From Holosporales bacterium (lineage in GTDB: Bacteria; Pseudomonadota; Alphaproteobacteria; UBA3830; JAIRMZ01): 37,400 bases of DNA. The notes under the pieces were generated by a model. The model was not told where the DNA came from. It searched no databases and was given only the letters and a program-made list of their open reading frames with translations. Numbering within the stretch: position 1 is the stretch's first letter; each line of letters starts with the position of its first letter. The stretch lies in contig JAIRST010000027.1 of NCBI GenBank assembly GCA_031255325.1, positions 1 through 37,400 of the forward strand, written 5' to 3'. The position numbers were made by a program, and so were the translations under genes. Shown here piece by piece: positions 3,756-19,800 of this stretch.

Positions 3756-3832
3756 TGGTGCGATCGGCGGGATTCGAACCCACGACCCCGAGATTAGGAA
3801 TCTCGTGCTCTATCCTGCTGAGCTACGACCGC
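3756..3832 (-). tRNA. tRNA-Arg (anticodon CCT), CCA encoded
   Basis: The reverse complement gives a 77-nt cloverleaf: acceptor GCGGTCG/CGATCGC (one G-T pair), D-arm AGCTCAGCAGGATAGAGC, anticodon loop TTCCTAA, T-arm GGGTTCGAATCCC. Confidence 0.9.
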
Positions 3833-4465
3833 ATTCAGCTCAGTTTTAAAGGAGTCTCTTCGTTGTGTCCATAAAAAGGTAACCTTTTCAGGTGTTTGTT
3901 CTAAGTGTAGATGCGCCCCACAAGAGTTGGCAAACATTTCTGCAAAAAAGCAAAGAACAGTTCGGGATGAAAGCATTTTTTCTCCCAAAAACCATGCGGC
4001 AACCGTTTCATTTAAAGCAATGCGGCCTCCCTGTCCTGTACATTGGAGGGTAAGCATTTCTTTATCTTCTATAAGTTCAAAAACCATGTGCCCTCCGCGT
4101 ATGAGAGTGGGCAAAAGAATCATCGCGGTTGTTACCATGAACTTTATAATAGGAGTAGGTACCGCACGAGGAATATCACGCGTTAAAAACGTAACTTTTT
4201 CGCATAAGCAATAGCTCGCAATAATTTCTTTTCCTTCTTCAAAAGAACTTTCTGGATATTCTTCAGCATTGATAGATAAAAGACGGAAAAGTTTCAGCCG
4301 AGCGGCTAAGCGCTGCTGAGATTCAGAAAGTATTTTCAAGGCTATATCGTTATCATCGCTATTTTCCATAGCATTAATTCCAAGTCCTATAGCTCCAACG
4401 GGAGCGGTAAGATCATGGAACAAACGCGCTAGCAGCAATTCAAACATTCGTAAAGAATCGAACAC
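3794..4465 (-). CDS. chpT: ChpT-like histidine phosphotransferase (CtrA phosphorelay component)
   Basis: 223 aa. An N-terminal H-box-like LARLFHDLTAPVGAIGLG sits in a helical DHp-like region. It is followed by a C-terminal alpha/beta domain with no ATP-lid G1/G2 motifs visible by eye, which is the ChpT architecture. GTG start is preceded by GGAAGG. The last 13 codons and the stop lie inside tRNA-Arg. Confidence 0.65.
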   Translation of the reverse strand: MFDSLRMFELLLARLFHDLTAPVGAIGLGINAMENSDDNDIALKILSESQQRLAARLKLFRLLSINAEEYPESSFEEGKEIIASYCLCEKVTFLTRDIPRAVPTPIIKFMVTTAMILLPTLIRGGHMVFELIEDKEMLTLQCTGQGGRIALNETVAAWFLGEKMLSSRTVLCFFAEMFANSCGAHLHLEQTPEKVTFLWTQRRDSFKTELNAVVAQQDRARDS

Positions 4466-5287: not shown

Positions 5288-6586
5288 ATGTTCGTAACGC
5301 AATTTTTAAAAAAACGGCTACCGAAAACACTCTATGGGCGAACGCTTTTGATCATTGTGATGCCCATCGTCTTGATCCAGACGATTTCTGCTTATGTTTT
5401 TTTCAATCGTCACTTGGAATCGGTCATCTGGCAAACAAGTAATTTAAAAGCCAGAGAAATCAGCACTGTCGTAGCGCTGTTTCAGGATTTACAGCAGTCT
5501 ATAGCCGAAAGAGAGGCTGCTCGTTTTGAATTAAAGCTAGAGATCCTTCCGCCGCAAAAGGAAATGCCTTCTCACACTTCTGGCATCACCCGACAAATAT
5601 TTAATGTTGCTTTGAAAGGGCATTTAGAAGAAGCGTATTCCCTAACAAAAGCCGGCGAATATTTCGTCGTTCATGTTTTCATGAAGGACAATACGCTAAA
5701 ATTTTCTCTCCTTAAAAAGCGCTTTGCCAACCGTACGAGTGATGTATTTATTATGTGGTCATTGGGAACATCGATTTTATTCACGTTGATTGCGTGGGTT
5801 TTTATGCGCAATCAGATTCGTCCCATAAAACAGCTTGCAAAAGCGGCTGATCAATTCGGTAAAAACAACACGTTTGATCCTTTGAAACCCGGTGGCGCCT
5901 TGGAAGTGCGCAAGGCAGGAGAGGCTTTTAATAACATGCAGGAACGCATTAATCGCCATATCCAACAACGGACTGAAATGCTGACGGGAGTATCGCATGA
6001 TTTGCGTACCCCTTTAACACGCATGCGCTTGCACCTTGAGCTGATGCCAGGGGATACAAACATTTTGGCGCTAAAGCATGATTTATCTGAAATGGACATA
6101 ATGGTCACGCATTTCCTTGAGTATGTTCAGGGAGAACGTTTGGAAAAAGCTGAGCGCGTCGCTTTAGCCCCTGTTGTCCGTGAAGTTGCACGGCGCTATT
6201 TCATGCCGACGCTTCAATGCGATTTTCATCTGGATGATCGTATTGTGTATAGTTTACGGCCTCAGGCCTTTCGACGCCTTTTAGCAAATCTTCTCTCTAA
6301 TTGTCAAAGGTATGCGCACACTGTTCTTATACGCCTTATACAAAACCAAGAAGATATTGTTTTAACTTTCGAAGATGATGGTCCAGGCATTCCTGAAGAG
6401 CACAGAAAAGACGTGTTTAAGCCCTTTTTTCGACTTGATGCTTCACGAACCCCTGGAAAAGGCGGAAGCGGCTTAGGACTTCCGATCGTAAAAGACCTCG
6501 TCGCATCCATGGGAGGAACGATCACGCTGGCGTCTTCTTCCATTGGGGGATTAGGTGTCATTATTCGCCTTCCCAACAATTGTTAG
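5288..6586 (+). CDS. EnvZ-like sensor histidine kinase (no adjacent response regulator)
   Basis: 432 aa. Two hydrophobic segments (LLIIVMPIVLIQTISAYVFF and FIMWSLGTSILFTLIAWVF); a HAMP-like linker; H-box SHDLRTPLTRMRL; N-box LLSNCQRYA; G1 DDGPGIP; G2 GSGLGLPIV. Confidence 0.88.
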   Translation: MFVTQFLKKRLPKTLYGRTLLIIVMPIVLIQTISAYVFFNRHLESVIWQTSNLKAREISTVVALFQDLQQSIAEREAARFELKLEILPPQKEMPSHTSGITRQIFNVALKGHLEEAYSLTKAGEYFVVHVFMKDNTLKFSLLKKRFANRTSDVFIMWSLGTSILFTLIAWVFMRNQIRPIKQLAKAADQFGKNNTFDPLKPGGALEVRKAGEAFNNMQERINRHIQQRTEMLTGVSHDLRTPLTRMRLHLELMPGDTNILALKHDLSEMDIMVTHFLEYVQGERLEKAERVALAPVVREVARRYFMPTLQCDFHLDDRIVYSLRPQAFRRLLANLLSNCQRYAHTVLIRLIQNQEDIVLTFEDDGPGIPEEHRKDVFKPFFRLDASRTPGKGGSGLGLPIVKDLVASMGGTITLASSSIGGLGVIIRLPNNC

Positions 6587-7611
6587 CAAACAGTAAGGCG
6601 CACAGGATCCAAAGGAATAGATGAATGATGAAAAGACGTAAGCCAAGAAGTATGCCCCAAAAGATTTTTGCCGTTCAGGTAGGTACCAGAAGTGTGCATG
6701 GGAGGATGTAAAAACATAGTACAGCTATGCTCTGCCCCCAAAAAAGAGCGCATATATTGAGCAAGAGCCGACCAACGGGAAGCTTTAGGCAGGAAGGCGC
6801 AGAAGTCCTCAAATGTCTCAGGAAAGCACATAAGGATTAGGCCGTGTGCTTGATCCCAGATACGCTTACCAAGGAGAGTACTTACGCCCAGCAGATGTGC
6901 AGAGCATCCAAGAATTGTATGATCAATGGCATCAATAGGACGCCACCCCCCTAAAAAATTACAGGCTTTTGTGCGTGTGTTAAAAAAATTTTGCAACTGC
7001 CTTTCAAGTTTAGAAAGACTCCTTGGATATTCCCATAAATGTCCAGAAAATCCGATCTGTTCTGAGAAAACCGATCTTCCAGGAAGAATGCCAGTAAAAG
7101 TCCTATGGAGCGTTCCTAAAAGGGATGCCTGAAAAGGTGCTCCTTGGAGTGCTGGAAAACGCTTTAGGGAAATCCTATGGGAAATTTCTAGAATTCGATG
7201 ATTAAACACATTTAAGAAAGCTTCTAAGGCTAAATGTTTCTGACGTTTTTCCGATACAAGAAGTTCACGATACGCAACAGGAAGGGGACTTTGAACGCCC
7301 AAAAGGTTCATGCGATTAGTGGTAATCGTCATAGAAGGACGTTTCTGAAAAGACGTGTGTTGATCAGGCTTTAGGAATTGGACATCAACGACTTCATACG
7401 CTTGTAAGTCAAAATGAAGTTTTCCACATAGTCTGATCTCTTTCAAAGAATCCTGGTGGTTATATTGAGCTTTTTCTTGAATGTTTTTAGCGTTAAAAGA
7501 AGAGATATACCTTTTACAGATATACAGGGCTTGATCAAGTGAAAACCTATAGGGTTCTTCTTGCAATCGCTCAATTAAAGATCTTTTTGCTGTCCGAACT
7601 GTATAGGCCAC
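6583..7611 (-). CDS. tssG: Type VI secretion baseplate protein TssG
   Basis: 342 aa. N-terminal EEPYRFSLDQALYI matches the conserved TssG N-terminus. It sits immediately after tssF. GTG start is preceded by AAGGAA and overlaps the tssF end by 37 nt. Confidence 0.8.
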   Translation of the reverse strand: MAYTVRTAKRSLIERLQEEPYRFSLDQALYICKRYISSFNAKNIQEKAQYNHQDSLKEIRLCGKLHFDLQAYEVVDVQFLKPDQHTSFQKRPSMTITTNRMNLLGVQSPLPVAYRELLVSEKRQKHLALEAFLNVFNHRILEISHRISLKRFPALQGAPFQASLLGTLHRTFTGILPGRSVFSEQIGFSGHLWEYPRSLSKLERQLQNFFNTRTKACNFLGGWRPIDAIDHTILGCSAHLLGVSTLLGKRIWDQAHGLILMCFPETFEDFCAFLPKASRWSALAQYMRSFLGAEHSCTMFLHPPMHTSGTYLNGKNLLGHTSWLTSFHHSSIPLDPVRLTVC

Positions 7612-9368
7612 GTTTTCAACATTCCTTCTTTATGTGGATCTTTTACAGAAATTTCGACGAAGCTGTTATAAGAGGTATAAGAGCGAAAAAATTCAGCCAA
7701 AACACCGCTAAATAAAATAGTATTCACCGAACTATTTTCTGCGTCATCGATTTCCAATGTGATTTTTTGCCCGGGGACAAAACCTCGCCATCCATCACGT
7801 CCTAATCGCCGTGTAGAGGGTGTATAGGTGATAGAGGAAAGAGCATGAATCTCTTGTTGATAAGGAGAAATCCGCTCGGAAAGGACGTATAACAACTCTT
7901 TCAGTCGCTGAAGGGTGTTGTCCTTTTTTGAAGAGATAAGAGATAAAGATTCTAAGGAAAGCATCGTTATCAGGCGCCAAAGTGTTTCTCCTTGTATAGG
8001 AGGAGATTTGACTGTTGTTGGCCTTTCCATACAGAAAATTTTTTTAATGGGTAAAGATTGTTCAATTTGAAAAATACCACCAGCAGGAATCTCTTGAGCA
8101 AGTTCACGATTTGTGCACAAGGTATGCGCATAGATAACGAAATGTTCTGAGTGCTCTGGATGTAGAGCGAGATTCACAAAGGAAAGGAACACATCTGTTC
8201 CTGTAACGTCCATACGTTCTGAAGGCATTCTTCGTGCTGTCCAGAAAAGGATAGGTGCTTGCTGCTGTATCCGATACGTTAAAGCATGATAAGGAGGAAT
8301 TTCTATTTCTTGAGTACTTTCCGTATCTAAAGAGACAACGCGAGAAATGCTGTAAACTTCTTGGGTAAGATAACGGCGTTGGTCAGGAATGATCATCGTT
8401 TCTGTTCGTGTATAATCAAGCATTATCGGCTCGCTGATACTTTCGAAAAGGTTGATTCCTGGCACACAGTTAAACTCCAATGAACGTGGATTTACCTCAA
8501 GATGCTTTCCAGAAATTTCACTCATAGGAAGGTAAAATGAAAGAGTCTCATGCCAATTATCGAGAGGAATGGAATGTATCTCTGCGCCTAAGAACTTTTG
8601 TGGAAATGCAAAATATTCTTCCAGAAAGCGAAACCCTCGGTGCTCCTCGTGCGTAATAGGCAATAGATTCTCTGAATCCTGGAACCCAATAGCTTGCAAG
8701 GAAGGTATTTTTTGCAGAATATTGTCTTCTGAAATTTTTATAAAAATGGGTAAATCGTGCGTGAAAAGAGCCTTATAAAGAGTGTTTTTAAAGGTATCTT
8801 CCCCTAGCAAATAGAATCGCAAACGCTCTGGTCCTTGCCCTAAAGGACCATGCCAGCGTACACGCAGGTGTAAGTATGCGGGGGCTTCCATTAAGGGCTC
8901 TTCTGGAAGAACAATCTGGCTGTGGAGAATCTCAACAGGCCATAAATTAAGGTCATGTGTCGTCCTAAAAAAACATACGCTACCATCGCTTCCGTTCGTA
9001 AAAAGTTGGCTGTCTTTTTTTACGTATATCCCCGGCGTTTGGCCGCTTTTATCGAAATCTAAATCAAAACAAAAAAGCGCCATAGATGGAATTGGACGCG
9101 TAAAAGAAGGATATAAAGTTTGCAAAAGAGCAGAAGCGATCTCTGGCGTAAGATCATCGATTTGTTTTTGTAAACGTCCTGTTAGCAGGGCAAAAGACTC
9201 TAACAAACGCTCTACATGCGGATCTGTAGAGGGCGTTTTTCCGAAATCAAGATGCTGGGCGATGTCAGGGAAATGTGCGGAAAATTCCTGGCCTAAAGTC
9301 CTTAAAAAGGAAAGTTCTTTTTGATAATAAGAAACAAGAATTTCACGGGATTTTTCCATTGTTTCCAT
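7575..9368 (-). CDS. tssF: Type VI secretion baseplate protein TssF
   Basis: 597 aa. N-terminal YYQKELSFLRTLGQEFSAHFPDIAQHL is the characteristic TssF opening. Size and position between tssE and tssG are canonical. Confidence 0.88.
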   Translation of the reverse strand: METMEKSREILVSYYQKELSFLRTLGQEFSAHFPDIAQHLDFGKTPSTDPHVERLLESFALLTGRLQKQIDDLTPEIASALLQTLYPSFTRPIPSMALFCFDLDFDKSGQTPGIYVKKDSQLFTNGSDGSVCFFRTTHDLNLWPVEILHSQIVLPEEPLMEAPAYLHLRVRWHGPLGQGPERLRFYLLGEDTFKNTLYKALFTHDLPIFIKISEDNILQKIPSLQAIGFQDSENLLPITHEEHRGFRFLEEYFAFPQKFLGAEIHSIPLDNWHETLSFYLPMSEISGKHLEVNPRSLEFNCVPGINLFESISEPIMLDYTRTETMIIPDQRRYLTQEVYSISRVVSLDTESTQEIEIPPYHALTYRIQQQAPILFWTARRMPSERMDVTGTDVFLSFVNLALHPEHSEHFVIYAHTLCTNRELAQEIPAGGIFQIEQSLPIKKIFCMERPTTVKSPPIQGETLWRLITMLSLESLSLISSKKDNTLQRLKELLYVLSERISPYQQEIHALSSITYTPSTRRLGRDGWRGFVPGQKITLEIDDAENSSVNTILFSGVLAEFFRSYTSYNSFVEISVKDPHKEGMLKTWPIQFGQQKDL

Positions 9369-9369
9369 C

Positions 9370-9813
9370 TTACATATTAATTGTTACCGGAAAAGAAACA
9401 GGGTAATAGGTTTTATTTAGAGATAGACCCCCTGTGACATGCGCTATTAAGCACCTGTTTAAGAAAGGCGTATCATCAACCTGTACCTGAACATTGCACA
9501 AGCGTGGTTCATAATGTGCAATAAGGTTTTGCAAATAATTTGCATAGGTTTCTTGGAAAAAATCCGTACCCTGTGGGCGTGAAAAAACAATGTCACGCAT
9601 ACCATAGGCATAAGGTGTAATGAAAGTATCTTTTCCTTGCCAATAAGGGCTTGTATGCTCGTTAAGAAGATGCTCTATCTCGTGCAAAACAGATTGTTTT
9701 AATGTCTCGACCGTATGATACGCAGAAAAGGTTAAAGGCGTATTTCCACCTGTTGCGAACCTTTCAAAAAGGGGGCGTTTTTCGTAAAAATGCGTACGTT
9801 CTATTGGTGTCAT
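9370..9813 (-). CDS. tssE: Type VI secretion baseplate protein TssE (gp25-like)
   Basis: 147 aa. Contains LKQSVLHEIEHLLNEHT, AYGMRD and IAHYEPRL, typical of the GPW/gp25 family. One nucleotide separates its stop from the tssF ATG. Confidence 0.85.
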   Translation of the reverse strand: MTPIERTHFYEKRPLFERFATGGNTPLTFSAYHTVETLKQSVLHEIEHLLNEHTSPYWQGKDTFITPYAYGMRDIVFSRPQGTDFFQETYANYLQNLIAHYEPRLCNVQVQVDDTPFLNRCLIAHVTGGLSLNKTYYPVSFPVTINM

Positions 9814-10349
9814 TTCTGATCTTTCGTTAGATCAGAGGTAAATACAGCGTTTCCCGTAGGACGCCCTGTTTGCGGATCGAGGACGATGATTTTGTCCGAA
9901 ATTTTGCTGAAATAAAAAGAATAGTATTCTTCTCGTCCTATGTAGCGAATTTCACGCAAAAAGCAGTCAGAAAACTTTGTGCATCGTATCACAGTACTTT
10001 TCTTTTTCCCGGGCTCCAGTCCGTAAAATGTCAATTCAGGAAGAGGAAATTTCTGATGAAATTTCTCTTGTAGGCTCGCAGAGTGAGCCCCAAAAACTAT
10101 ACCAAATTCTACAGGATCAGAATAAATAACCCCCAATCTTTTGAACGTTTTTAGAAAAGAATCTTGGACTGTATGCCGCGCTGCATAGCTCCACCCTGTA
10201 CACGGTGCAGCGTTTTTATATCCTTGGACAACAGAAGAAAAAACATCCTTTGCAGAGATAAGCCAGTAAGGCTCTTTTGCAGAAGCACATGATGTGAGAG
10301 GAACGCTTGGGCTTCTTATTTCATAAGAACTCATGGTAGAAGTTTCCAC
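9810..10349 (-). CDS. Hypothetical protein in the T6SS operon (possible very divergent Hcp-like paralogue)
   Basis: 179 aa, with no signal peptide, no TM segment and no motif I recognise. GAGGAG lies 7 nt before the GTG start, and an alternative ATG lies 5 codons in. Its TGA overlaps the tssE ATG (ATGA). The C-terminal ~50 residues align by eye at roughly 20 percent identity with the adjacent Hcp C-terminus. Confidence 0.6.
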   Translation of the reverse strand: METSTMSSYEIRSPSVPLTSCASAKEPYWLISAKDVFSSVVQGYKNAAPCTGWSYAARHTVQDSFLKTFKRLGVIYSDPVEFGIVFGAHSASLQEKFHQKFPLPELTFYGLEPGKKKSTVIRCTKFSDCFLREIRYIGREEYYSFYFSKISDKIIVLDPQTGRPTGNAVFTSDLTKDQK

Positions 10350-10399
10350 CTTCTAACTCCTCTACGAGATTGTCGGTTGTCCAGCTTAATCTCAAACGA

Positions 10400-10975
10400 T
10401 TATTCGCCCGCTGCAGACCACGTGCTATAGTTAAATCCGGCCGCAACGTTTCCGGAATCCGTTCCTGTTCTGTCGCGATGCGTATAGCTGAAATCAATCT
10501 GGTCGTAATAGATTGTGATGATAGCTAAATCGCCATCAGAAAATATTCCTTTTATTTGGCAATTAGTTAAAGTCAAGCCGCGTTTCGTTTGCACTCCTGA
10601 TTTCAAATTGATCATCGTGTTAATGGTGATGGTATCAATTACGTCGGCAGAGGTATGCTTTTCGAACAAAAGAGCAATATGTTTATCATCTTCAATAACG
10701 ATATCAACGGTGTGTGCTTGCAACTGTCCATAGTCTGTAACACGTGATGTTGCTTCTCCTCGCATCAGCCGATCGAATTCCAAAACACATCCATAACAAG
10801 AGAGGTATGTTTCCATGCCGCTTGTTGTGCCTTCTGTGATATCCGGAACCTCAATTAAAAACGGAGGCGTGCGAGATTGAGCCCGTCCATCTTTTGACAT
10901 GTACTTTTCGCGCACATGGTCTAATAACCGCAGTTTTGCATTACGTTCTGCGTAGAGAGAGAGCGTATCACTCAT
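10400..10975 (-). CDS. hcp: Type VI secretion tube protein Hcp (TssD), divergent, with N-terminal extension
   Basis: 191 aa. It occupies the canonical position after tssC. From residue ~37 (PPFLIEVPDITEGTT...) to the C-terminal IITIYYDQIDFSYTH...GNVAAGFNYS the pattern matches Hcp-family beta-barrel proteins. A strong AAGGAG Shine-Dalgarno lies 7 nt before ATG 10975. Confidence 0.65.
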   Translation of the reverse strand: MSDTLSLYAERNAKLRLLDHVREKYMSKDGRAQSRTPPFLIEVPDITEGTTSGMETYLSCYGCVLEFDRLMRGEATSRVTDYGQLQAHTVDIVIEDDKHIALLFEKHTSADVIDTITINTMINLKSGVQTKRGLTLTNCQIKGIFSDGDLAIITIYYDQIDFSYTHRDRTGTDSGNVAAGFNYSTWSAAGE

Positions 10976-11011
10976 CTTTAATCTCCTTCTTCATCATTTT
11001 CTGTGCCCCTT

Positions 11012-12469
11012 TTATTTCGCGGGAGGAGGTAAAGTTGCTACCAACCGAATGGAAGCCGTCAATTCCTCAAGTTGGAAATGAGGGCGTAGGAAAATTGTTG
11101 CCTTATACGACCCTGGTTTTCCCGGAACATCGAAAACATCGACACGCGCTTCACGTAAGGGATAGCGCGCTTTCAATGCTTGCGAGGCGTTGTCATTTAA
11201 GATGACGTAATTTGCAATCCAGGTGTTCAGGTAGTGCTCGACCTCATCCTTTGTCGCAAATGACCCAATTTTATCGCGCATAATAGCTTTAATGTAATGC
11301 GCAAAGCGTGACGCCGCTAAAATATAGGGCAAACGCCCACTCAAGGAAGCGTTTGCGTTAGCATCATCTGTATTATAGACCTTTGGTTTTTGCGTTGTTT
11401 GCCCACCGAAAAAGGCAGCATAATCAGTTCCTTTACTGTGACAGAGTGCCAGAAATCCCAGATCGCCTAATTCTTTTTCGCGCCGATCTGTAATAGCAAT
11501 TTCTGTTGGACATTTTAGGGCGATATCTCCATCCGTTGTTTTAAACGTATAAGCGGGAAGATCTGTGACGAGTCCTCCGCCTTCAACACCGCGAATTGCT
11601 GCTGGCCATCCATAATGAGCAACGGCATCTGTAACGCGTTGTGCAAGAACAAAAGCTGGATTCCCCCAACAGAATTTGGCGTTGTCTGTGCCGTATAAAT
11701 CTTCTTTAAAAGCGAGTCCATCAACAGGCTGCGTATCTGGTCCATAAGGCAATCGGGCGAGAACATGCGGCAATGTCAAGGCGACATAACGTGCATCTTC
11801 GCTATCTCGGAACGAGCGCCATTTAATCATCTCAGTACTTTCGAATATTTTTGAAAGATCCCGTGGTTCCGATAAATGCGTATAGGCATCCATATCAAAA
11901 AGGATAGAGCTTGCCATTGTAATAAAGGGGGCATGCGCTGCTGCGGCAACATTTGAAATTTTCGACAAAAGCTCCATATCCTGGGGAGAACGCGTGAATT
12001 CATACCCTCCAACAAGGCAAGAGTAAGGATTCCCTCCGAAAGTGCCGTACTCTTCTTCATAAACTTTTTTGAAAAGAGCGCTTTGATCAAATTCAACAGC
12101 TTTTTCTAAATCATCAAGAAGCTCTGCCTTTGTGACATTTGCAAGACGCAATTTTAGATGGGTTCCGGTTTCCGAGTTCATCACCAGATAGCGCAAGCTG
12201 CGCCATGTTCCTTCTAATTCTAGGAAATCTGGATGATGCAAGACTTCGTTCAATTGTGCGTTGATAGCATCATCAACACGTTGCACTTCACGTGTAACAA
12301 AAGCGAATGTGTTGGAGAGTAAAGGTTCTTGTGCCGCATCGATGCGATCTAAGAATTCCACCAGCATCTTTGACGCATAGTCTTCAAGATTAGGCGTGCG
12401 TGCGAGCTTTCCTTCTTTAAAAAGGCGCTCTAAAAGGGTTTCTGGATCAAGGGGTGTTGCCTGGGCCAT
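11012..12469 (-). CDS. tssC: Type VI secretion contractile sheath large subunit TssC (VipB)
   Basis: Contains HHPDFLELEGTWRSLRYLV and other TssC-typical blocks; about 485 aa. I place the start at ATG 12469 (MAQATPL...), preceded by GGAG. The ORF track extends it to TTG 12481. Confidence 0.93.
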   Translation of the reverse strand: MAQATPLDPETLLERLFKEGKLARTPNLEDYASKMLVEFLDRIDAAQEPLLSNTFAFVTREVQRVDDAINAQLNEVLHHPDFLELEGTWRSLRYLVMNSETGTHLKLRLANVTKAELLDDLEKAVEFDQSALFKKVYEEEYGTFGGNPYSCLVGGYEFTRSPQDMELLSKISNVAAAAHAPFITMASSILFDMDAYTHLSEPRDLSKIFESTEMIKWRSFRDSEDARYVALTLPHVLARLPYGPDTQPVDGLAFKEDLYGTDNAKFCWGNPAFVLAQRVTDAVAHYGWPAAIRGVEGGGLVTDLPAYTFKTTDGDIALKCPTEIAITDRREKELGDLGFLALCHSKGTDYAAFFGGQTTQKPKVYNTDDANANASLSGRLPYILAASRFAHYIKAIMRDKIGSFATKDEVEHYLNTWIANYVILNDNASQALKARYPLREARVDVFDVPGKPGSYKATIFLRPHFQLEELTASIRLVATLPPPAK

Positions 12470-12483
12470 GATTTTCTCCAAAC

Positions 12484-13062
12484 TTATTGCTTTTTGCTCG
12501 TGTCGGGGGAAGTATTTTCCACTTGAGACTTTTTATTTCCTCCTGGCAAAGAAGATGCTGGTTTTGCTCGCGCAGCAATCTGTTGGCGTACCGCATCTCG
12601 TAGATCTTTATTGGTAAGCAAAGCATCTAATAGAGCAAATAAAGGGTCGTTCCCTTCCATTTTGGCCTGAATATCACGCAACACAACGCGTGATTCATAA
12701 AGAGTATTTAAAGCCGGAACGCTTTTCACAACCGCTAAAGGACCGAAGTCTTCCATCGATGAGAAAAAAAGTTCTACCCCCGTTTGTGGTTTGTCCGTTG
12801 TTAATTTGTTGGCTACTTCAAACGCAAGCCGTGGCTTTATGGAAGCAAGAATTTCATCGAAGTTGTCTCTGTCGATTTCTACAAATTTACGGTCTTTAAA
12901 GCGTGGAAGAGGTGTTTCAGGTTTTCCTGAAAGATCTGCGAGAATGCCGACAAGAAAGGGAAGTTCCTTCATCTGGATCGCATCCCCGATTTCAACATCA
13001 TAAGTGATTTGGACGCGTGGTGGACGGACACGGTCAAGAATATGTTGCGTACTTTCAGCCAT
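12484..13062 (-). CDS. tssB: Type VI secretion contractile sheath small subunit TssB (VipA)
   Basis: 192 aa. RVQITYDVEIGDAIQMKELPFLVGILADLSG is the hallmark TssB N-terminal block. It is followed directly by tssC. Confidence 0.92.
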   Translation of the reverse strand: MAESTQHILDRVRPPRVQITYDVEIGDAIQMKELPFLVGILADLSGKPETPLPRFKDRKFVEIDRDNFDEILASIKPRLAFEVANKLTTDKPQTGVELFFSSMEDFGPLAVVKSVPALNTLYESRVVLRDIQAKMEGNDPLFALLDALLTNKDLRDAVRQQIAARAKPASSLPGGNKKSQVENTSPDTSKKQ

Positions 13063-13480
13063 CGGTTTTTATCCCTTAAAATCGCTAACGCGCTTTTTGT
13101 TCTAAAAGTAGGATAAGAAGAAAAGTTTAAAAGTATGTAAACGTAATTAGAAAATTTAATAAAATTCTTTTATGTTTGACCATATCCGAGGATTTTTAAG
13201 AAATAGAACACAAAAAACGTACGGGAGGGTTTGAACTCGAAAGAACAAAATGTCCAATGGAAGAGAGATCTAAAAGGACTCTCAATGGATTCAATTTTTC
13301 GAAGAATGCACCAATCATATAAAGATTTTTGACGAAAAACACTCATATAAAATCAAAGCGTACGGAACAGGTGAAAGAATTGAGCAGGAACGTGATGACA
13401 AAAAATAGCAACAGGACCCTTATGGAAGAAATTTTTAATAAAGCTCTAGAGGAAGTTCATGGAGCAGAGGTATTTGTACT

Positions 13481-14017
13481 TTAAACGCGTTTGTATGTCA
13501 CCGTACGTGGCGTTGGCAGAGGAGCCTGTACCCCTTGCTTCGCTTCAGATGTATCGCGAATAACACGAGAACGTCCTGCTTGACCAACAATCACAATGAC
13601 GGCACTGCCCTTAGGAAGCAGATCCTCAAGACCTTGCACAACTGTCATCACTTGACCATTTGTTAATTTGATAGTGTACTCCACAGCCTCTTGTTCTCTA
13701 AGGGCCTGTTGCGCCATTGCTCCACCAATAGCCCCCCCTATCGCACCTATCGCTGTCATCGCTGTTTTCCCATCGCCTTTACCAAATGCAGACCCCAGAA
13801 GGCCTCCACCAACAGCGCCAAGAGCGCCACCCTCTACGTTTTCTTGCAGCTGTTCGCTCCCTACGCGCACTTTTCTAACATTCAAAATCGTCCCTTGATA
13901 GGAAAAAGACGCTTCGCCTACATGATTTTCACTATAAACATTCGAGTCAATGCGACGTGTACATCCTGCAAGGAGCAGGGCAGCAATGCATACCGAACAC
14001 CCTAGATATTTATTCAT
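13481..14017 (-). CDS. Glycine-zipper outer-membrane lipoprotein (17-kDa surface antigen / SlyB-like)
   Basis: The start is trimmed to MNKYLGCSVCIAALLLAGC (lipobox LLAGC). Glycine-zipper run: GGALGAVGGGLLGSAFGKGDG...AIGAIGGAIGGAMA. Confidence 0.75.
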   Translation of the reverse strand: MNKYLGCSVCIAALLLAGCTRRIDSNVYSENHVGEASFSYQGTILNVRKVRVGSEQLQENVEGGALGAVGGGLLGSAFGKGDGKTAMTAIGAIGGAIGGAMAQQALREQEAVEYTIKLTNGQVMTVVQGLEDLLPKGSAVIVIVGQAGRSRVIRDTSEAKQGVQAPLPTPRTVTYKRV

Positions 14018-14172
14018 ACTTTTCTTTCTTTTGTTAAGCAGATAGAACTTTAACATAGGATTATTTAAAAGGTAAGATACGGTATGAGGATCAATCCTCT
14101 TTCTCGTAAATGAAGAGAGTAGAATTTAATCAGCTCCTTTTATAAAGTTTTTCTTCCTCGTATGCTGCTTTC

Positions 14173-15408: not shown

Positions 15409-16188
15409 GGGGTACGATGGAAATGCGTGGAAGCGTCTCTATTGGAAATATCATGATTGAGGCAAGGATATACACGACTAAAAGACATTATGCGTTCGTG
15501 CTGTGTGAGAAGAAACTCCTGGCTTATAAGATTAAAGAAGTAAGAAACAAGTACGATTCTGAAAATACCTGTATAGGATGAGCTTTATTCTTTTATTTAA
15601 AGAAGAAAACTATGTTTGAGGGAGAACAGCTGTTGACGGGAATAGTGTTGCGTTTAGCAGCAGCCATGGAAAAGCTAGTTCTTTAAATCTTTAAAATCCA
15701 TGCAAAACAAAATGACACGTCATTAAAAAATACTGTATACATAAATGCAAATTTATGCATACAAAAAAATGATTTCCAATACGATAGAGTTTACTATCAA
15801 TTAATCGAAACTGGGAGTAATACTCGATAGGAGTTTGATGTCAGGAATGGGGAATTTTTAAAATCACACAACACTTATTATTGGACTATAATGAAATTAT
15901 GTAGTCAACTCATAGGGAATAGATGACGTATCTGCGCGAAAAATTTATATTAATGTCAATTTCTAGAATCTGTTTAGGAGAATCGTATTATTTTATGTGG
16001 CTCTATTACTGCGCCAGATGACGCCCACTAATCAAGTGTTCCTCAAAATCCAATTGTATGCTGAAATTATTGTCACCTTTATTGATTAACAAAAACGTCC
16101 TCTATCCTATTCCTTAACCAATTATGCCGATGATGTGTTAATTCCTGGAAATTATGCAACCTCTGCAAAATTCTCTACAATTCTTTCC

Positions 16189-18672
16189 ATGCGTTATACT
16201 TCGTTTGCATTTTTATTTATTTTTATAGGGCTTAAAACTGCCTTTGCAGATCCTGTGGTCGTCAGCTCCAATGATCACAATGTTTTGGAAAATGAAGAAG
16301 AATTGCTTGCAAAAGTATTTGGATCGAAGCGAGAGAAAAAAGATGTTTTAATGGAATTTAATTTATTGCTCGATGGGGAAAAAGTTGGGGAAATTATGGT
16401 TATGATTGGAGGAACGAATAAAGTTCTTGCCAAATCCATAAAAGAAGCACTGGTCGACTATTTAGCTGAGGAGGAAATAAAGAAGATAGATGCGGCAAAA
16501 GACGAGAATGGATTCATCTCATTTGAAACTTTGGATCTTTTAAAACTAGATACGAAATTTGATGCGACCAAACTTCAGGTGGAAATCAACGTTCCAGTGA
16601 ACCTAAAAAAGACTAGAGGTATAGAAATAGGTTCAAAAGGCCGTAAAGAAAAGCCTAATGTTACGCCCGCGACTTTCAGTGGATTCACTAATGCACATTT
16701 TTCCAATACCTCACATAGTGGAATGTATAAATCAAACAGCAGAACATTGATTCTGACTCCAGTCATTAATCTTTTGGGAATAACGCTTGAAGGAGAGTGT
16801 TCTTATGAGCAAGATTCAACTTCTAGTAAAAGACGATTTAAAAAGGACTATACAGCACTTGTTTATGATTGGCCAGAAGAAGCTTTGTTATTCCAGATAG
16901 GGGATATATTCAGTCATTCTGTGGATTATCATAGCGTGCCAAAAGTTTTTGGTTTTAGTTTCTATAGAAATTCCCTTTTAAAAAGTGGAGATGACCTTAC
17001 TAATGATATTCCTGTAACTTTGCTAAGACAAAGTACAATTGAAGTATACGTAAATGACGCATTAGTTAAGACTAAGACTAATGTAGCGCCCGGAACATAT
17101 ATCTTAAATAGTATTCCATGTACTTATGGCTTTAACAACGTAAAGATAAAAATCATTGACGACGCGGGAAGAGAGCAATTTCTTAATGCTAACGTATTTC
17201 TTGATAGTTCTTTCGTTAGAAAAGGAGAAAGCTCTTACGGGCTGACTATTGGATATCCAGAAGCAAGCAATAATAAAAAAAACTTTGTTACCTCCGCGTT
17301 TATCAAATATGGATTAATGGCGGCGATAGAGTGTCAGTTGGGAATTCTACTCAACAGAATTGGAAAAACTGTTTCCGCAGGAATAAAAAATAAAAATATA
17401 CTTGGATTCCTAGAAGGAAAGTACGCTCAAAGTAAATACAAAGAAGGGAATATTCAGCCAGAGGGAAAAATTTTTAGCCTTTCCTACATATCGCCATCTT
17501 GGAAAGTTATATTCCCTATTAATCTTGGAATTTCTGTAGAAAAATCTGATCAGTTTTTTTATCCTTATCTTAACACTCTAAAAGATACTAAAGAAGATTC
17601 TGGTAGCTTTTTAAGTCAACAAAAGAACAGAAACGGAGGACATAGTGCTATGCGATGCTCTTTATTTATCAGCGATTTTTTGGGTCTAAACCTTGGCTTT
17701 AACTATGGTGTAGAAAAAAGCTCGGATAACACTCAAAACAGATTTTCTGTTAATGCAACGAAATACATTGCATTTAATAACGAGATCTTTAGCAGCATTC
17801 AACTGCATTGCTCTTTCGAACAAGTCCTTACGCGTGACAAAAAAGCAGATAGAATATTTAGCTTTACTGGCTCTGTTCCCCTAAAGGGCGGTACGACATT
17901 ATCGACGAGAGGCAATAACAAAAGCAGCTATGATTCTTCCATTTCTTATCAACCTCATGATAATGGTTTTGGGTATAATGCGTCTTTTAATAAAAACAAA
18001 GAGTCCAAATCATATATTGCTAATACGAGTTATCGTCATTCACGGTTTAGAGCCAATTTGAATTACAATAGAACAAGCAACTCTTCTCATACAACTCAGG
18101 TTGGATTGGGAACAGGTTTGTTTTTCGTTGATGGGGTGGTTGCTGTAGCGGGAAATGACACAAGTGATGGGGGGTTTGTTATCGTAAGGCCGAAAGGGGC
18201 ATTAGCAAATGAGAATCTTAAGTTCCTCAATAGTTCTGCTGAATCGGGCATTTTAGGAGGAGCTGTTTTATCAGCAGGTAAGAATATAAATTCTTTTCGT
18301 TTGGATTTAAATGAGCTGCTAGACAAAGAGGTGGATCAGGATACGATTGTCGTTCACGGATATTATAAACGAGGTGCTTTAGCAGAAATTTCTGCTGAAG
18401 GAAGTTACATCGCAAAAGGTAAATTACAGGATGCACAGGGAGCAGCAATCACTCTTGCAAGTGGATTTGCTATCTCAAAAACAAATACAGAAGCAGCTCC
18501 TGTTCAATTTTTTACAAATGATGAAGGTATTTTCGCTATAACTAATCTTAATCCCGGGAAGTACAAAGTTACCGTAAATGTGGAGGGGTATGAGGATTTT
18601 GAGATCGAAATACCAGAGTCTGCAGAACAGTTTATTGATTTAGGAACGATCACATGCAAGGATTCTCAATAA
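16189..18672 (+). CDS. Fimbrial usher-like outer-membrane protein (divergent), with C-terminal carboxypeptidase-regulatory-like beta-sandwich
   Basis: The start is trimmed to MRYTSFAFLFIFIGLKTAFA (signal peptide); the ORF track starts at GTG 16135. An N-terminal usher-like block ends in KFDATKLQVEINVP. A plug-like motif TIEVYVNDALVKTKTNVAPGTYILNSIPCTYGFNNVKIKIIDDAGREQ is present. The long middle region is Ser/Asn/Tyr/Gly-rich and barrel-like. C-terminal GIFAITNLNPGKYKVTVNVEGYEDFEIEI. Confidence 0.55.
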   Translation: MRYTSFAFLFIFIGLKTAFADPVVVSSNDHNVLENEEELLAKVFGSKREKKDVLMEFNLLLDGEKVGEIMVMIGGTNKVLAKSIKEALVDYLAEEEIKKIDAAKDENGFISFETLDLLKLDTKFDATKLQVEINVPVNLKKTRGIEIGSKGRKEKPNVTPATFSGFTNAHFSNTSHSGMYKSNSRTLILTPVINLLGITLEGECSYEQDSTSSKRRFKKDYTALVYDWPEEALLFQIGDIFSHSVDYHSVPKVFGFSFYRNSLLKSGDDLTNDIPVTLLRQSTIEVYVNDALVKTKTNVAPGTYILNSIPCTYGFNNVKIKIIDDAGREQFLNANVFLDSSFVRKGESSYGLTIGYPEASNNKKNFVTSAFIKYGLMAAIECQLGILLNRIGKTVSAGIKNKNILGFLEGKYAQSKYKEGNIQPEGKIFSLSYISPSWKVIFPINLGISVEKSDQFFYPYLNTLKDTKEDSGSFLSQQKNRNGGHSAMRCSLFISDFLGLNLGFNYGVEKSSDNTQNRFSVNATKYIAFNNEIFSSIQLHCSFEQVLTRDKKADRIFSFTGSVPLKGGTTLSTRGNNKSSYDSSISYQPHDNGFGYNASFNKNKESKSYIANTSYRHSRFRANLNYNRTSNSSHTTQVGLGTGLFFVDGVVAVAGNDTSDGGFVIVRPKGALANENLKFLNSSAESGILGGAVLSAGKNINSFRLDLNELLDKEVDQDTIVVHGYYKRGALAEISAEGSYIAKGKLQDAQGAAITLASGFAISKTNTEAAPVQFFTNDEGIFAITNLNPGKYKVTVNVEGYEDFEIEIPESAEQFIDLGTITCKDSQ

Positions 18673-18674
18673 GC

Positions 18675-19490
18675 ATGATCAGAAAATCTATAGCGCTTAT
18701 ATTTTTTTTGTTCTTCAATGATAGCCACGCAACGGAGGTGGCGCATGCCCATTTAGATAAATACGATGGTATATTTGAAATCAGGTCTCAAGGACATGTC
18801 GTTGGAAACTTTAAGGTAAGTATTAAAAATGATGGGAAAGTCGCTAAAGAAGGTGAAGAATCCATAGCCTTTACCATACAATTAGAAGATATAAGATTAA
18901 GCACAGATATAACTGGCGTTAACAAATTAAAATGTTCCCATGAAGGCGGCGCTGATCAAGAAATAAATTTACTATCGAAAGATGGAAAATATAGGACGGA
19001 GGATATTCATATTCCTTTAGCTAAATCTTTTTATTCTCAAAAAAGGAATGGTGAATTTAGCGTTACATTGACTTTTCAATTAAGAGGGGTTCCTATTGTA
19101 TTTGATAAAGTTGATATAATAATTGTCCCAGAAATAAATATTGCAGCTGACCGTGATACAGTCGATTTTGGAACATTGTTTTACGATAACAACAGAGTCT
19201 ACGGACCCAATAGAGAAGTTATCCTCTATTACAAAATACTCAATAATGGAAAATGTTTCATTTCTAGCAGGAATGGTTTTTGTTTAAAGCATCCTAATGG
19301 AGATTTGATCGAGTATGCGATCGGAAAAGGCGAATTAGCATTCATTAACCAAAACATAACAATGTTAACGTTGGACGCTCACGGGACAACGTATCGTTTG
19401 GAACTTAATGTCGATAGTTACTCCAGAGATATCCCCTCTTCTGGCAATTACCAAGATTCTCTTACTATATCTTTCTTACCAAATGAATAA
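18675..19490 (+). CDS. Secreted two-domain pilin-like protein (putative tip adhesin, SCPU/Csu-like C-terminal domain)
   Basis: The start is trimmed to MIRKSIALIFFLFFNDSHA (signal peptide), 3 nt after the usher stop. The second half contains VDFGTL and ends in SGNYQDSLTISF. The first half ends in the similar NGEFSVTLTFQL. Both endings resemble the terminal strand of chaperone-usher subunits. Confidence 0.45.
   Translation: MIRKSIALIFFLFFNDSHATEVAHAHLDKYDGIFEIRSQGHVVGNFKVSIKNDGKVAKEGEESIAFTIQLEDIRLSTDITGVNKLKCSHEGGADQEINLLSKDGKYRTEDIHIPLAKSFYSQKRNGEFSVTLTFQLRGVPIVFDKVDIIIVPEINIAADRDTVDFGTLFYDNNRVYGPNREVILYYKILNNGKCFISSRNGFCLKHPNGDLIEYAIGKGELAFINQNITMLTLDAHGTTYRLELNVDSYSRDIPSSGNYQDSLTISFLPNE

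Positions 19491-19724: not shown

Positions 19725-19800
<76 letters not shown>

What the first reader, a model, noticed from the sequence alone, without database searches (positions are those of the whole stretch)
6583..13062. Stand-alone T6SS sheath/tube/wedge module with no membrane complex, TssK, TssA, spike or ClpV nearby
Seven co-directional, translationally coupled genes (tssB, tssC, hcp, orf179, tssE, tssF, tssG) form a 6.5-kb block. The order matches the tssB-tssC-hcp-tssE-tssF-tssG part of canonical T6SS-i clusters such as P. aeruginosa H1. In those clusters clpV and vgrG follow tssG. Here the block stops there: the tssG stop codon (6583-6585) overlaps the stop codon (6584-6586) of a convergent envZ-like gene.

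Upstream of tssB lie a 418-bp spacer, a glycine-zipper lipoprotein and mtaB. Nothing resembling TssJ/L/M, TssK, TssA, VgrG, PAAR, Fha or ClpV is visible in the other 31 kb.

Three explanations are possible:
- The system is split across the chromosome.
- It is a degenerate remnant, which is unlikely given the intact ORFs, good ribosome-binding sites and tight coupling.
- It is a reduced or novel contractile apparatus that uses non-canonical anchoring, recycling and spike parts.

If the organism is an intracellular alphaproteobacterial symbiont, as the gene content hints, the question is of real biological interest.
Basis: partly seen in the sequence, partly recalled or inferred. Interest (0 to 1): 0.72.

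Follow-up and report, generated by a model that had tools for sequence, protein, structure and literature searches.

The report
Fragment of a dispersed Holosporales T6SS
This seven-gene block is the sheath, tube and baseplate-wedge part of a type VI secretion system that symbiotic Holosporales bacteria are already known to keep scattered over several chromosomal sites, so it is an ordinary split system whose only fresh detail is that it carries two very divergent tube (Hcp) genes.

Summary
Window 6583-13062 (- strand) holds seven intact, co-directional genes: tssB, tssC, orf191, orf179, tssE, tssF and tssG. Nothing else in the window resembles a T6SS part.

The window is a complete 37.4-kb MAG contig, so that absence says nothing about the rest of the genome.

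The closest TssC relatives (81-86% identity) are Holosporales MAGs. One of them has the same seven-gene block between different housekeeping genes.

Free-living relatives (63-68% TssC identity) carry one contiguous cluster: tssJ-K-L-M-A-B-C-hcp-E-F-G-clpV-vgrG-ywqK-PAAR. The window block is a syntenic fragment of that cluster, cut at tssA|tssB and at tssG|clpV.

The matching stand-alone tssK-L-M-A module was found in related low-GC contigs. The literature already describes Holosporales T6SS genes dispersed over four or more loci.

New detail: orf191 and orf179 get no Pfam or NCBIfam hit, yet both are Hcp-fold proteins by profile comparison and by AlphaFold2 plus Foldseek. The inner tube reported as "missing" in Holosporaceae is therefore present and duplicated here.

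Whether ClpV and TssJ exist in this genome remains open.

Verdict: a new member of a known kind, of modest interest.

The parts
12484..13062 (-). tssB (VipA), small subunit of the contractile sheath, 192 aa
   Evidence: PF05591 172 bits. TIGR03358 168 bits against a 97 cut-off. 59% identical to P. aeruginosa H3 TssB and 84% identical to the Holosporales MAG Gx481_bin16.
11012..12469 (-). tssC (VipB), large subunit of the contractile sheath, 485 aa from the ATG at 12469 (an alternative TTG lies at 12481)
   Evidence: PF05943 418 bits plus PF18945 154 bits. TIGR03355 658 bits against a 271 cut-off. Best database relatives are Holosporales MAGs at 81-86% identity. The N-terminal LLxRLFxEGKLAR helix is conserved.
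10400..10975 (-). hcpA (orf191), a divergent Hcp tube protein with an N-terminal extension of about 30 aa predicted to be helical
   Evidence: No Pfam or NCBIfam hit. A 54%-identical homologue, P0125, carries a precomputed PF05638 hit. The family profile hits only Hcp structures in the PDB. hhalign against canonical Hcp gives 97.9% probability, E 5.8e-13. AlphaFold2 model: pLDDT 85.7, pTM 0.81. Among the 50 Foldseek PDB matches listed, 48 are Hcp structures and the other two are fusions containing Hcp1; target TM-scores reach 0.82.
9810..10334 (-). hcpB (orf179), a second divergent Hcp-fold paralogue, 174 aa from the ATG at 10334 (an alternative GTG lies at 10349)
   Evidence: 20% identical and colinear with orf191, E 5e-4. 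It belongs to the same family alignment. AlphaFold2 model: pLDDT 84.0, pTM 0.78. Among the 50 Foldseek PDB matches listed, 48 are Hcp structures and the other two are fusions containing Hcp1; target TM-scores reach 0.83. Only 4 homologues were found among 1.8 billion representative proteins. The ortholog in L012 is 68% identical and sits at the same position.
9370..9813 (-). tssE, gp25-like baseplate wedge protein, 147 aa; its start overlaps the hcpB stop (ATGA)
   Evidence: PF04965 27.7 bits against a 27.2 cut-off. TIGR03357 50.5 bits against 53.2. 26% identical to H3 TssE, E 3e-8. Its position matches the ortholog in every canonical cluster examined.
7575..9368 (-). tssF, baseplate wedge protein, 597 aa
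   Evidence: PF05947 489 bits covering profile positions 5-608 of 608. TIGR03359 476 bits against a 260 cut-off.
6583..7611 (-). tssG, baseplate wedge protein, 342 aa; overlaps tssF by 37 nt, and its stop overlaps the stop of the convergent histidine-kinase gene
   Evidence: PF06996 152 bits covering profile positions 1-303 of 304. TIGR03347 137 bits, just under the 143 cut-off. The same 37-nt tssF/tssG overlap occurs in L001.
13063..13480 (-). 418-bp non-coding spacer upstream of tssB, presumed to hold the promoter (inferred only)
   Evidence: No ORF with family support lies here. No sigma-70-like or sigma-54-like consensus was found on the - strand. No intergenic terminator-like site lies inside the block.

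Best explanation
The block is the sheath (TssB, TssC), tube (two divergent Hcp paralogues) and baseplate-wedge (TssE, TssF, TssG) operon of a T6SS-i.

The organism is a Holosporales-type alphaproteobacterium, probably a symbiont of a eukaryote. In this order the ancestral contiguous cluster, in the order tssJ-K-L-M-A | tssB-C-hcp-E-F-G-clpV-vgrG-ywqK-PAAR, has been broken up by genome rearrangement into several loci lying among housekeeping genes. This lineage kept the tssB-to-tssG segment in one piece.

The missing partners are expected on other contigs of the same genome: the TssK baseplate adaptor, the TssL/TssM membrane complex, the TssA cap and the VgrG/PAAR spike.

Proposed mechanism (inferred from canonical T6SS-i biology):
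1. The TssE-F-G wedges, with TssK and VgrG, dock on TssLM.
2. Hcp hexamers stack into a tube inside a TssBC sheath.
3. Sheath contraction expels Hcp, VgrG and effectors into or through host membranes.

Shown here:
- gene identities and intactness
- the Hcp fold of both small ORFs
- conservation of the block in a relative
- synteny with contiguous clusters
- existence of separate tssK-L-M-A modules in relatives

Inferred, not shown:
- that this particular genome has those other loci
- that the seven genes form one transcript
- how the sheath is recycled (ClpV elsewhere in the genome, or ClpB)
For: 1. Identity and intactness: Pfam and NCBIfam hits cover the full profiles for TssB, TssC, TssF and TssG. 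Protein lengths match P. aeruginosa H3 counterparts: 192/181, 485/494, 147/141, 597/597 and 342/338 aa.

2. Taxon: the best TssC relatives are Holosporales and Holosporaceae MAGs and Ca. Finniella. The Hcp-like family was found only next to the tssC genes of that group.

3. Conservation: the same seven genes, in the same order and with the same tssF/tssG overlap, occur in Holosporales MAG Gx481_bin16 (L001/L012) between different housekeeping genes. dS is saturated while dN is 0.13-0.48.

4. Synteny: free-living relatives have the contiguous cluster with identical internal order. Examples are Niveispirillum, Azospirillum, Nitrospina, Desulfobacterales and P. aeruginosa H3.

5. Fragmentation in the clade: about 20 Holosporales-type loci show only tssB/C (often fused), an hcp-like gene and sometimes tssE. 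None has tssJKLMA upstream or clpV downstream.

6. An intermediate and the complementary module:
- L089 has tssK-tssL about 7 kb from tssB-tssC-hcp-like-tssE, with housekeeping genes between.
- L090-L092 carry tssK-tssL-tssM(-tssA) with no sheath genes beside them. L091 holds the whole four-gene module and is flanked by mutS, an ISL3 transposase and gpsA. L092 is cut inside tssA, and L090 ends about 0.6 kb after tssM with no tssA found.

7. Literature:
- A dispersed, conserved four-locus arrangement that is transcribed (PMC8163844).
- T6SS conserved in almost all Holosporineae (PMC11909080).
- 'Reduced but potentially functional' systems (PMC9992710).

8. Tube: both small ORFs have the Hcp fold.
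Against: - The rest of this genome could not be examined. The window is one whole contig, and its MAG did not appear in the species-representative genome scan, where the best TssC hit was 81% identical. Presence of tssK/L/M/A, vgrG and PAAR in this organism is therefore an inference from relatives.
- No ClpV was seen in any Holosporales-type locus, and none is listed for the complete Ca. Bodocaedibacter genome.
- No TssJ gene precedes tssK in L090 or L091.
- TssM in those contigs is unusually long (1506-1550 aa). In L091, the one scanned with Pfam, only the N-terminal IcmF-related domain was recognised.
- The complete machine may therefore be non-canonical in anchoring and recycling.
- No promoter was identified.
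- The taxonomy of L090-L092 rests only on TssK similarity and low GC.
Confidence: 0.8

Rival explanations
1. A truly reduced or modified contractile system. The seven genes, perhaps with a few non-canonical partners, would work without a canonical TssJLM anchor, without ClpV, or, as earlier papers proposed for Holosporaceae, without an inner tube.
For: - George et al. reported TssD and TssJ missing in Holosporaceae and proposed a 'specialized, modified T6SS' (10.1101/719211). The 2025 review repeats this.
- No ClpV was found in Holosporales-type loci or in the Bodocaedibacter gene list.
- No tssJ precedes tssK in L090 or L091. Their TssM is long (1506-1550 aa), and in L091 no C-terminal IcmF domain was recognised.
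- The Hcps are extremely divergent and carry N-terminal extensions.
Against: - The 'tube-less' part is contradicted here. Two Hcp-fold genes sit exactly where hcp belongs.
- TssK, TssL, TssM and TssA are present in relatives (PMC8163844).
- The TssC N-terminal helix is conserved even in fused TssBC proteins, which argues for a retained interaction partner. From my own knowledge, this helix is the ClpV-binding site in V. cholerae.
- A TssJ-like lipoprotein is annotated next to tssK in Ca. Bodocaedibacter.
Confidence: 0.13
2. A decaying remnant of a T6SS cluster left after loss of the membrane complex in a shrinking symbiont genome, with no function.
For: - Holosporales genomes are reduced, and Holospora has lost the T6SS altogether.
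- The canonical neighbours tssA and clpV are absent at both ends of the block.
- TssE and TssG score near or below the curated NCBIfam cut-offs.
Against: - All seven ORFs are full length, with complete profile coverage and ribosome-binding sites or coupled starts.
- The whole block is conserved in L012 although synonymous sites are saturated, with dN 0.13-0.48.
- T6SS genes are retained even in genomes of roughly 0.6 Mb and are transcribed in Ca. Bodocaedibacter.
Confidence: 0.04
3. A horizontally acquired partial T6SS island, or a non-T6SS contractile injection system (T6SS-iv or eCIS-like) that needs no TssJLM.
For: - The flanking genes differ between the window and L012.
- An ISL3 transposase lies next to tssA in L091.
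Against: - GC content of the block (0.40-0.46) matches its flanks.
- There are no mobility genes next to the block.
- The sheath and wedge proteins are T6SS-i equivalogs, not phage- or Afp-type.
- The IglH/TssF model of T6SS-ii scores only 23.9 bits against a 75 cut-off.
- The closest relatives are all from the same bacterial order.
Confidence: 0.03

Closest known systems
Dispersed T6SS of Paracaedibacteraceae, Bodocaedibacteraceae and Caedimonadaceae, e.g. Ca. Bodocaedibacter vickermanii (PMC8163844)
   Same: - Same bacterial order, judged by TssC similarity.
- T6SS-i core genes are embedded among housekeeping genes.
- tssB-tssC is followed by a divergent 'Hcp1-like' gene.
- tssF-tssG are adjacent.
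- The membrane-complex genes lie elsewhere.
- No ClpV is listed.
   Different: - Here and in L012, tssB-tssC-hcp, tssE and tssF-tssG are still joined in one seven-gene block. In Ca. Bodocaedibacter they occupy three separate loci (CPBP_00985-7, 00258 and 00125-6).
- This block has two hcp paralogues in tandem.
Contiguous T6SS-i clusters of free-living relatives: P. aeruginosa H3-T6SS (recalled from memory to be subtype i4b), Niveispirillum, Azospirillum
   Same: - Gene order is identical: tssB-tssC-hcp-tssE-tssF-tssG.
- TssC is 63-68% identical and TssB 55-59% identical.
- The tssF/tssG overlap is the same.
   Different: - In those clusters tssJ-K-L-M-A lies directly upstream, and clpV-vgrG-ywqK-PAAR lies downstream on the same locus.
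- They have a single canonical Hcp that Pfam recognises.
- The window has housekeeping genes on both sides instead.
'Modified T6SS' of the diplonemid endosymbionts Cytomitobacter and Nesciobacter (George et al., 10.1101/719211)
   Same: A Holosporaceae T6SS in which standard HMM tools fail to find Hcp and TssJ.
   Different: That work interpreted the tube as absent. Here the unannotated ORFs downstream of tssC are shown to be Hcp-fold proteins. The 'missing tube' is therefore most likely a detection failure, at least for this lineage and the relatives sampled.
T6SS variants without TssJ or without ClpV: the Acinetobacter non-canonical membrane complex (PMC10564176), and Francisella T6SS-ii, which uses ClpB (recalled from memory)
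   Same: They are precedents for working T6SSs that lack a recognisable TssJ or a dedicated ClpV.
   Different: The subtypes are different. For the window's organism, absence of TssJ and ClpV has not been demonstrated; they are simply not visible on this contig.

Membership tests
T6SS-i (canonical proteobacterial type VI secretion system) | TssB/TssC contractile sheath pair | tested here: met
   TIGR03358 168 bits and TIGR03355 658 bits, both above their equivalog cut-offs; Pfam VipA, VipB and VipB_2.
T6SS-i (canonical proteobacterial type VI secretion system) | Hcp inner-tube protein | tested here: met
   Pfam and NCBIfam do not detect it. Evidence for the Hcp fold: profile against the PDB hits only Hcp structures; hhalign gives 97.9% probability; both AlphaFold2 models match Hcp structures at target TM-scores up to 0.82-0.83. 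Assembly into rings or a tube was not tested.
T6SS-i (canonical proteobacterial type VI secretion system) | Baseplate wedge proteins TssE, TssF and TssG | tested here: met
   TssF 489 bits, TssG 152 bits and TssE 27.7 bits (at the cut-off) in Pfam. Gene order and the tssF/tssG overlap match canonical clusters.
T6SS-i (canonical proteobacterial type VI secretion system) | TssK baseplate adaptor and TssA | tested here: inconclusive
   Absent from the window. Present on separate loci in relatives (L089-L092) and in published Holosporales genomes. The rest of this genome is not available.
T6SS-i (canonical proteobacterial type VI secretion system) | TssJ-TssL-TssM membrane complex | tested here: inconclusive
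   Absent from the window. TssL and TssM are present in the related contigs L090-L092. No TssJ was detected upstream of tssK in L090 or L091. A TssJ-like lipoprotein is reported in Ca. Bodocaedibacter.
T6SS-i (canonical proteobacterial type VI secretion system) | VgrG/PAAR spike | not testable with these tools
   Absent from the window. Known in relatives only from the literature: ywqK-vgrG and DUF4280 loci.
T6SS-i (canonical proteobacterial type VI secretion system) | Dedicated ClpV (TssH) disassembly ATPase | tested here: inconclusive
   Not in the window (the 865-aa ORF is AlaS). Not within 10 kb of tssBC or tssKLMA in any Holosporales-type locus. Not listed for Ca. Bodocaedibacter. The TssC N-terminal helix is nevertheless conserved.
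Holosporales dispersed T6SS (as described in PMC8163844) | Closest sheath homologues are from Holosporales, and the T6SS genes form sub-clusters flanked by housekeeping genes, separate from tssK-L-M-A | tested here: met
   TssC is 81-86% identical to Holosporales MAGs. The flanks are a histidine kinase, a lipoprotein and mtaB. The same block sits between different flanks in L012. Separate tssK-L-M-A modules occur in relatives.
Holosporales dispersed T6SS (as described in PMC8163844) | A divergent Hcp-like gene immediately downstream of tssC that evades standard HMMs | tested here: met
   The family HMM finds such a gene downstream of tssC in 25 Holosporales-type loci fetched by that point, about 20 once duplicate loci are merged; L089, fetched later, shows the same arrangement. 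The window has two.
T6SS-ii, T6SS-iii, T6SS-iv and eCIS-type contractile systems | IglA/B-type or phage/Afp-type sheath, tube and baseplate proteins rather than TssB/C/F/G equivalogs | tested here: not met
   All hits are to T6SS-i equivalogs. The IglH/TssF model scores 23.9 bits against a 75 cut-off. No phage-sheath or Afp-like Pfam hit occurs in the window.

The most novel reading that the evidence does not exclude
Holosporales, including this organism, may run a truly non-canonical T6SS-i with four unusual features:
- a tube built from two co-evolving, highly divergent Hcp paralogues carrying N-terminal extensions, either as a heteromeric tube or as a division into a tube protein and a tube initiator or effector carrier
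- no dedicated ClpV, with the sheath recycled by housekeeping ClpB or not recycled at all
- no TssJ, with a TssM enlarged to about 1500 aa providing the outer-membrane contact
- in many relatives, a single-chain TssB-TssC sheath protomer
Probability: 0.15. Interest if true: 0.55.

Novelty: new member of a known kind. Interest (0 to 1): 0.3.

Why it matters
The T6SS is the leading candidate for how Holosporales symbionts of protists manipulate their hosts, and nothing about it has been tested experimentally.

This locus adds two things:
- It preserves the longest ancestral fragment seen so far in the clade (tssB to tssG). That documents how one contiguous T6SS-i cluster (P. aeruginosa H3-like in gene order) was broken up step by step.
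- It shows that the inner tube reported as 'missing' in Holosporaceae is encoded by unannotated genes with an Hcp fold, duplicated here. This removes the main argument for a tube-less machine and gives annotators a family to search with.

It does not reveal a new kind of contractile system.

Tried and rejected
1. Exact look-ups of the window's TssC, with either start codon, and of the Ca. Finniella TssC (P0104) in the contig index returned nothing.

2. phmmer of orf191 and orf179 as single sequences against the PDB gave no meaningful hit. Only the family profile worked.

3. BLASTP of either Hcp-like protein against the canonical Hcps of P. aeruginosa H3 or Niveispirillum found nothing significant.

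4. Searches for homologues of the Hcp-likes returned very few proteins: 6, 4 and 21. The alignments behind the structure predictions are therefore shallow (21 and 25 sequences), although the models came out confident.

5. The glycine-zipper lipoprotein upstream (13481-14056) was considered as a TssJ or TagQ analogue and rejected:
- It matches the Rick_17kDa/SlyB-type glycine-zipper family.
- Its TagQ hit is 31 bits against a 300 cut-off.
- It is not next to tssB in L012, L003 or L089.

6. The 865-aa and 845-aa ORFs were checked as possible ClpV, VgrG or TssM. They are AlaS and a usher-like outer-membrane protein.

7. A sigma-54 promoter, as in H3-T6SS, was looked for upstream of tssB and not found. 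The window total is at chance level. No sigma-70-like site lies in the spacer.

8. dN/dS could not be computed as a ratio because dS is saturated.

9. The cluster look-up gave no taxonomic names for the window's housekeeping proteins, which are singletons.

10. A literature citation placing H3-T6SS in subtype i4b was not found in the papers opened. That subtype label rests on my memory only.

11. The supplement held for George et al. does not contain the T6SS component table.

Full report
**1. Observation**

The window holds seven co-directional ORFs on the - strand between 6583 and 13062.

- Pfam identifies TssB (PF05591, 172 bits), TssC (PF05943 418 bits and PF18945 154 bits), TssF (489 bits) and TssG (152 bits). 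Each covers essentially the whole profile. NCBIfam agrees for TssB (168 bits), TssC (658 bits) and TssF (476 bits), all above their cut-offs; TssG scores 136.8 bits, just under its 143.3 cut-off.
- TssE is marginal. GPW_gp25 scores 27.7 bits against a 27.2 cut-off, and TIGR03357 scores 50.5 against 53.2. It is 26% identical to P. aeruginosa H3 TssE (E 3e-8) and sits in the orthologous position.
- The two small ORFs, orf191 (10400-10975) and orf179 (9810-10349, with a likely ATG at 10334), have no Pfam or NCBIfam hit.

Read from the sequence, the junctions are 14 nt, 36 nt, 50-65 nt, a 4-nt ATGA overlap, 1 nt and a 37-nt overlap.

No other ORF in the window resembles a T6SS part.
- Pfam scans of all large ORFs give housekeeping genes. 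These include alaS, recA, phaC, proABC, mtaB, ChpT, a histidine kinase and a usher-like outer-membrane protein.
- phmmer with TssA/J/K/L/M, ClpV, VgrG, PAAR and YwqK references finds nothing.

One caveat applies: the window is the whole contig, because all window proteins looked up sit on a single 37,400-bp contig. 'Nothing nearby' is therefore true but says nothing about the rest of the genome.

**2. Whose genes these are**

The best TssC matches in a 5.8-billion-protein collection are Holosporales and Holosporaceae MAGs (81-86% identity), then Ca. Finniella inopinata and other Alphaproteobacteria MAGs (68-75%). Many of these relatives encode a fused TssB-TssC protein of about 690 aa.

The nearest named genome is Holosporales MAG Gx481_bin16 (L001/L012). 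It carries the same seven genes in the same order, including both small ORFs and the 37-nt tssF/tssG overlap, but between different housekeeping genes.

Between the two lineages synonymous sites are saturated, while dN is 0.13 (TssC) to 0.48 (TssG) for all seven genes. The block is therefore maintained by selection and is not decaying.

**3. Where the block comes from**

A scan of species-representative genomes with TssC returned 80 loci. I annotated them with reference proteins from an annotated P. aeruginosa T6SS cluster.

- That cluster (L007) is recognisable as H3-T6SS from its flanking msuE and lldA genes (the identification rests on my own knowledge). Its TssC is 62.8% identical to the window's.
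- Free-living relatives with 59-68% TssC identity carry one contiguous cluster: tssJ-K-L-M-A-B-C-hcp-E-F-G-clpV-vgrG-ywqK-PAAR. Examples are Niveispirillum, Azospirillum, Nitrospina, Desulfobacterales and Paraburkholderia.
- The window block has exactly the internal order of the tssB-to-tssG segment, cut at tssA|tssB and at tssG|clpV.
- In about 20 Holosporales-type loci only tssB/C (often fused), an hcp-like gene and sometimes tssE remain together. None has tssJKLMA upstream or clpV downstream.

The window and L012 thus keep the longest ancestral fragment seen in this clade.

**4. Where the rest is in relatives**

- L089 (GCA_026400645.1, TssC 68% identical) has tssK-tssL about 7 kb upstream of tssB-tssC-hcp-like-tssE, with housekeeping genes between. 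This is an intermediate stage of the break-up.
- Using that TssK in an alignment, a metagenome scan found low-GC contigs L090-L092 with a tssK-tssL-tssM(-tssA) module and no sheath genes next to it. L091 holds all four genes and is flanked by mutS, an ISL3 transposase and gpsA; L092 is cut inside tssA; L090 ends about 0.6 kb after tssM with no tssA found.

This agrees with the literature.
[quoted passage not shown] They are transcribed (PMC8163844).
- The T6SS is conserved in nearly all Holosporineae except Holospora (PMC11909080).
- It has been called 'reduced but potentially functional' (PMC9992710).

The split-system reading is therefore the best supported, and the phenomenon is already described.

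**5. The two small ORFs are both Hcp**

- orf191 and orf179 are weakly similar and colinear (20% identity, E 5e-4).
- They align with the unannotated ORFs that follow tssC in the Holosporales-type loci.
- One homologue of orf191 carries a precomputed PF05638 hit.
- The family HMM detects the canonical Hcps of the free-living clusters (E 2e-9 to 1e-3).
- The family profile hits only Hcp structures in the PDB (best E 5.6e-7).
- hhalign against a canonical Hcp alignment gives 97.9% probability and E 5.8e-13 over 151 columns.
- The AlphaFold2 models are confident: orf191 has pLDDT 85.7 and pTM 0.81; orf179 has pLDDT 84.0 and pTM 0.78.
- Of the 50 Foldseek PDB matches listed for each model, 48 are Hcp structures and the other two are fusions containing Hcp1. 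Target TM-scores reach 0.82-0.83.
- Both proteins have an N-terminal extension of roughly 15-30 residues that canonical Hcp lacks. In orf191 it is a confidently predicted helix (residues 2-25).

A rough NJ tree puts all Holosporales Hcp-likes in one clade apart from canonical Hcp, with several duplications. It is not a robust phylogeny.

This bears on published statements that the inner tube (TssD) is missing in Holosporaceae (10.1101/719211; repeated in the 2025 review). At least in this lineage and the sampled relatives the tube gene is present but too divergent for standard HMMs. The Bodo saltans endosymbiont paper had already flagged an 'Hcp1-like superfamily protein' after tssC, so this is a refinement and not a discovery.

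**6. What remains open**

- **ClpV.** It is the one canonical core part seen neither in the window, nor in any Holosporales-type locus, nor in the gene list of the complete Ca. Bodocaedibacter genome. Yet the TssC N-terminal helix (LLxRLFxEGKLAR) is conserved, even in fused TssBC proteins. From memory, this helix corresponds to the ClpV-binding helix of V. cholerae VipB. I cannot tell whether ClpV is encoded elsewhere, is replaced by ClpB as in Francisella (own knowledge), or is dispensable.
- **TssJ.** It was not detected upstream of tssK in L090 or L091.
- **TssM.** In L090-L092 it is 1506-1550 aa long. In L091, the one scanned with Pfam, only the N-terminal IcmF-related domain was recognised. 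Outer-membrane anchoring may therefore be non-canonical, as in Acinetobacter (PMC10564176).
- **Promoter.** None was identified in the 418-bp spacer. The single-operon reading rests on gene spacing and on the lack of intergenic terminator-like sites.

**7. Verdict**

- The 'remnant' reading is rejected.
- The 'novel stand-alone apparatus' reading is not needed, although Holosporales T6SSs may well be non-canonical in recycling and anchoring.
- The locus is a new member of a known kind: the dispersed T6SS-i of Holosporales.
- It has two modest additions: a seven-gene ancestral fragment still intact, and two tandem Hcp-fold paralogues.

Interest is about 0.3.

Noticed in passing
Relatives: L005/L006 10001-12145, L088 10001-12067, L008-L011, L039, L045; proteins P0005-P0090: Most Holosporaceae-type relatives encode a single fused TssB-TssC protein (about 630-760 aa; Pfam VipA + VipB + VipB_2). 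A low-complexity linker precedes the conserved TssC N-terminal helix. The window and L012 keep two separate genes. I found no mention of a single-chain sheath protomer in the papers I opened.
   Followed up: partly
L090 12172-16692, L091 5570-10222, L092 12027-16622: TssM in the stand-alone tssK-L-M-A modules is 1506-1550 aa long. In L091, the one scanned with Pfam, only the N-terminal IcmF-related domain (PF14331) was recognised. No tssJ-like gene was detected upstream of tssK in L090 or L091. This may indicate non-canonical outer-membrane anchoring.
   Followed up: partly
L089 35-2193 and 9425-12565: An intermediate stage of cluster break-up. tssK-tssL lie about 7 kb upstream of tssB-tssC-hcp-like-tssE on one contig, separated by housekeeping genes (murB, dapF, truA and others). 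tssM and tssA do not follow tssL.
   Followed up: partly
L091 11458-12696: An ISL3-family transposase lies immediately after tssA, at the edge of the stand-alone tssK-L-M-A module. This hints that IS-mediated rearrangement contributes to the scattering of the cluster.
   Followed up: no
L003 11504-12061 and 12880-13437; L005 12244-12840 and 12994-13575: Other Holosporales-type lineages also have two Hcp-like genes. In L003 the two copies are close paralogues flanking tssE; in L005 they are in tandem. On a rough NJ tree these look like independent duplications, which would mean recurrent selection for two tube paralogues.
   Followed up: partly
window 16135-19490 (and tRNA-Phe at 19725-19800): This stretch has lower GC (0.35-0.38, against about 0.43 elsewhere). 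It holds an 845-aa outer-membrane usher-like protein (PF00577, 54 bits, plus a C-terminal CarboxypepD_reg-like domain). A 278-aa ORF with no family hit follows, and the stretch ends near a tRNA-Phe gene. It may be a small adhesin or pilus-assembly island. No pilin or chaperone gene was recognised.
   Followed up: no
window 13481-14056: The lipoprotein upstream of tssB has a Rickettsia 17-kDa-antigen/SlyB-type glycine zipper (PF05433, 25.9 bits). Its hit to the T6SS lipoprotein TagQ model is very weak (31 bits against a 300 cut-off). It is not next to tssB in relatives, so it is probably unrelated to the T6SS.
   Followed up: partly
window 10901-10975 (orf191 residues 2-25): The N-terminal extension of the first Hcp paralogue is predicted with high confidence (pLDDT about 90) to form a long helix, which canonical Hcp lacks. 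In orf179 the extension is predicted to be disordered. Its position relative to the tube lumen or the sheath is unknown.
   Followed up: no
window 3794-4465 and 5288-6586: A ChpT-like histidine phosphotransferase (PF10090) and an EnvZ-like HAMP/HisKA histidine kinase lie just downstream of the block. This fits an alphaproteobacterial origin. There is no evidence that they regulate the T6SS genes.
   Followed up: no
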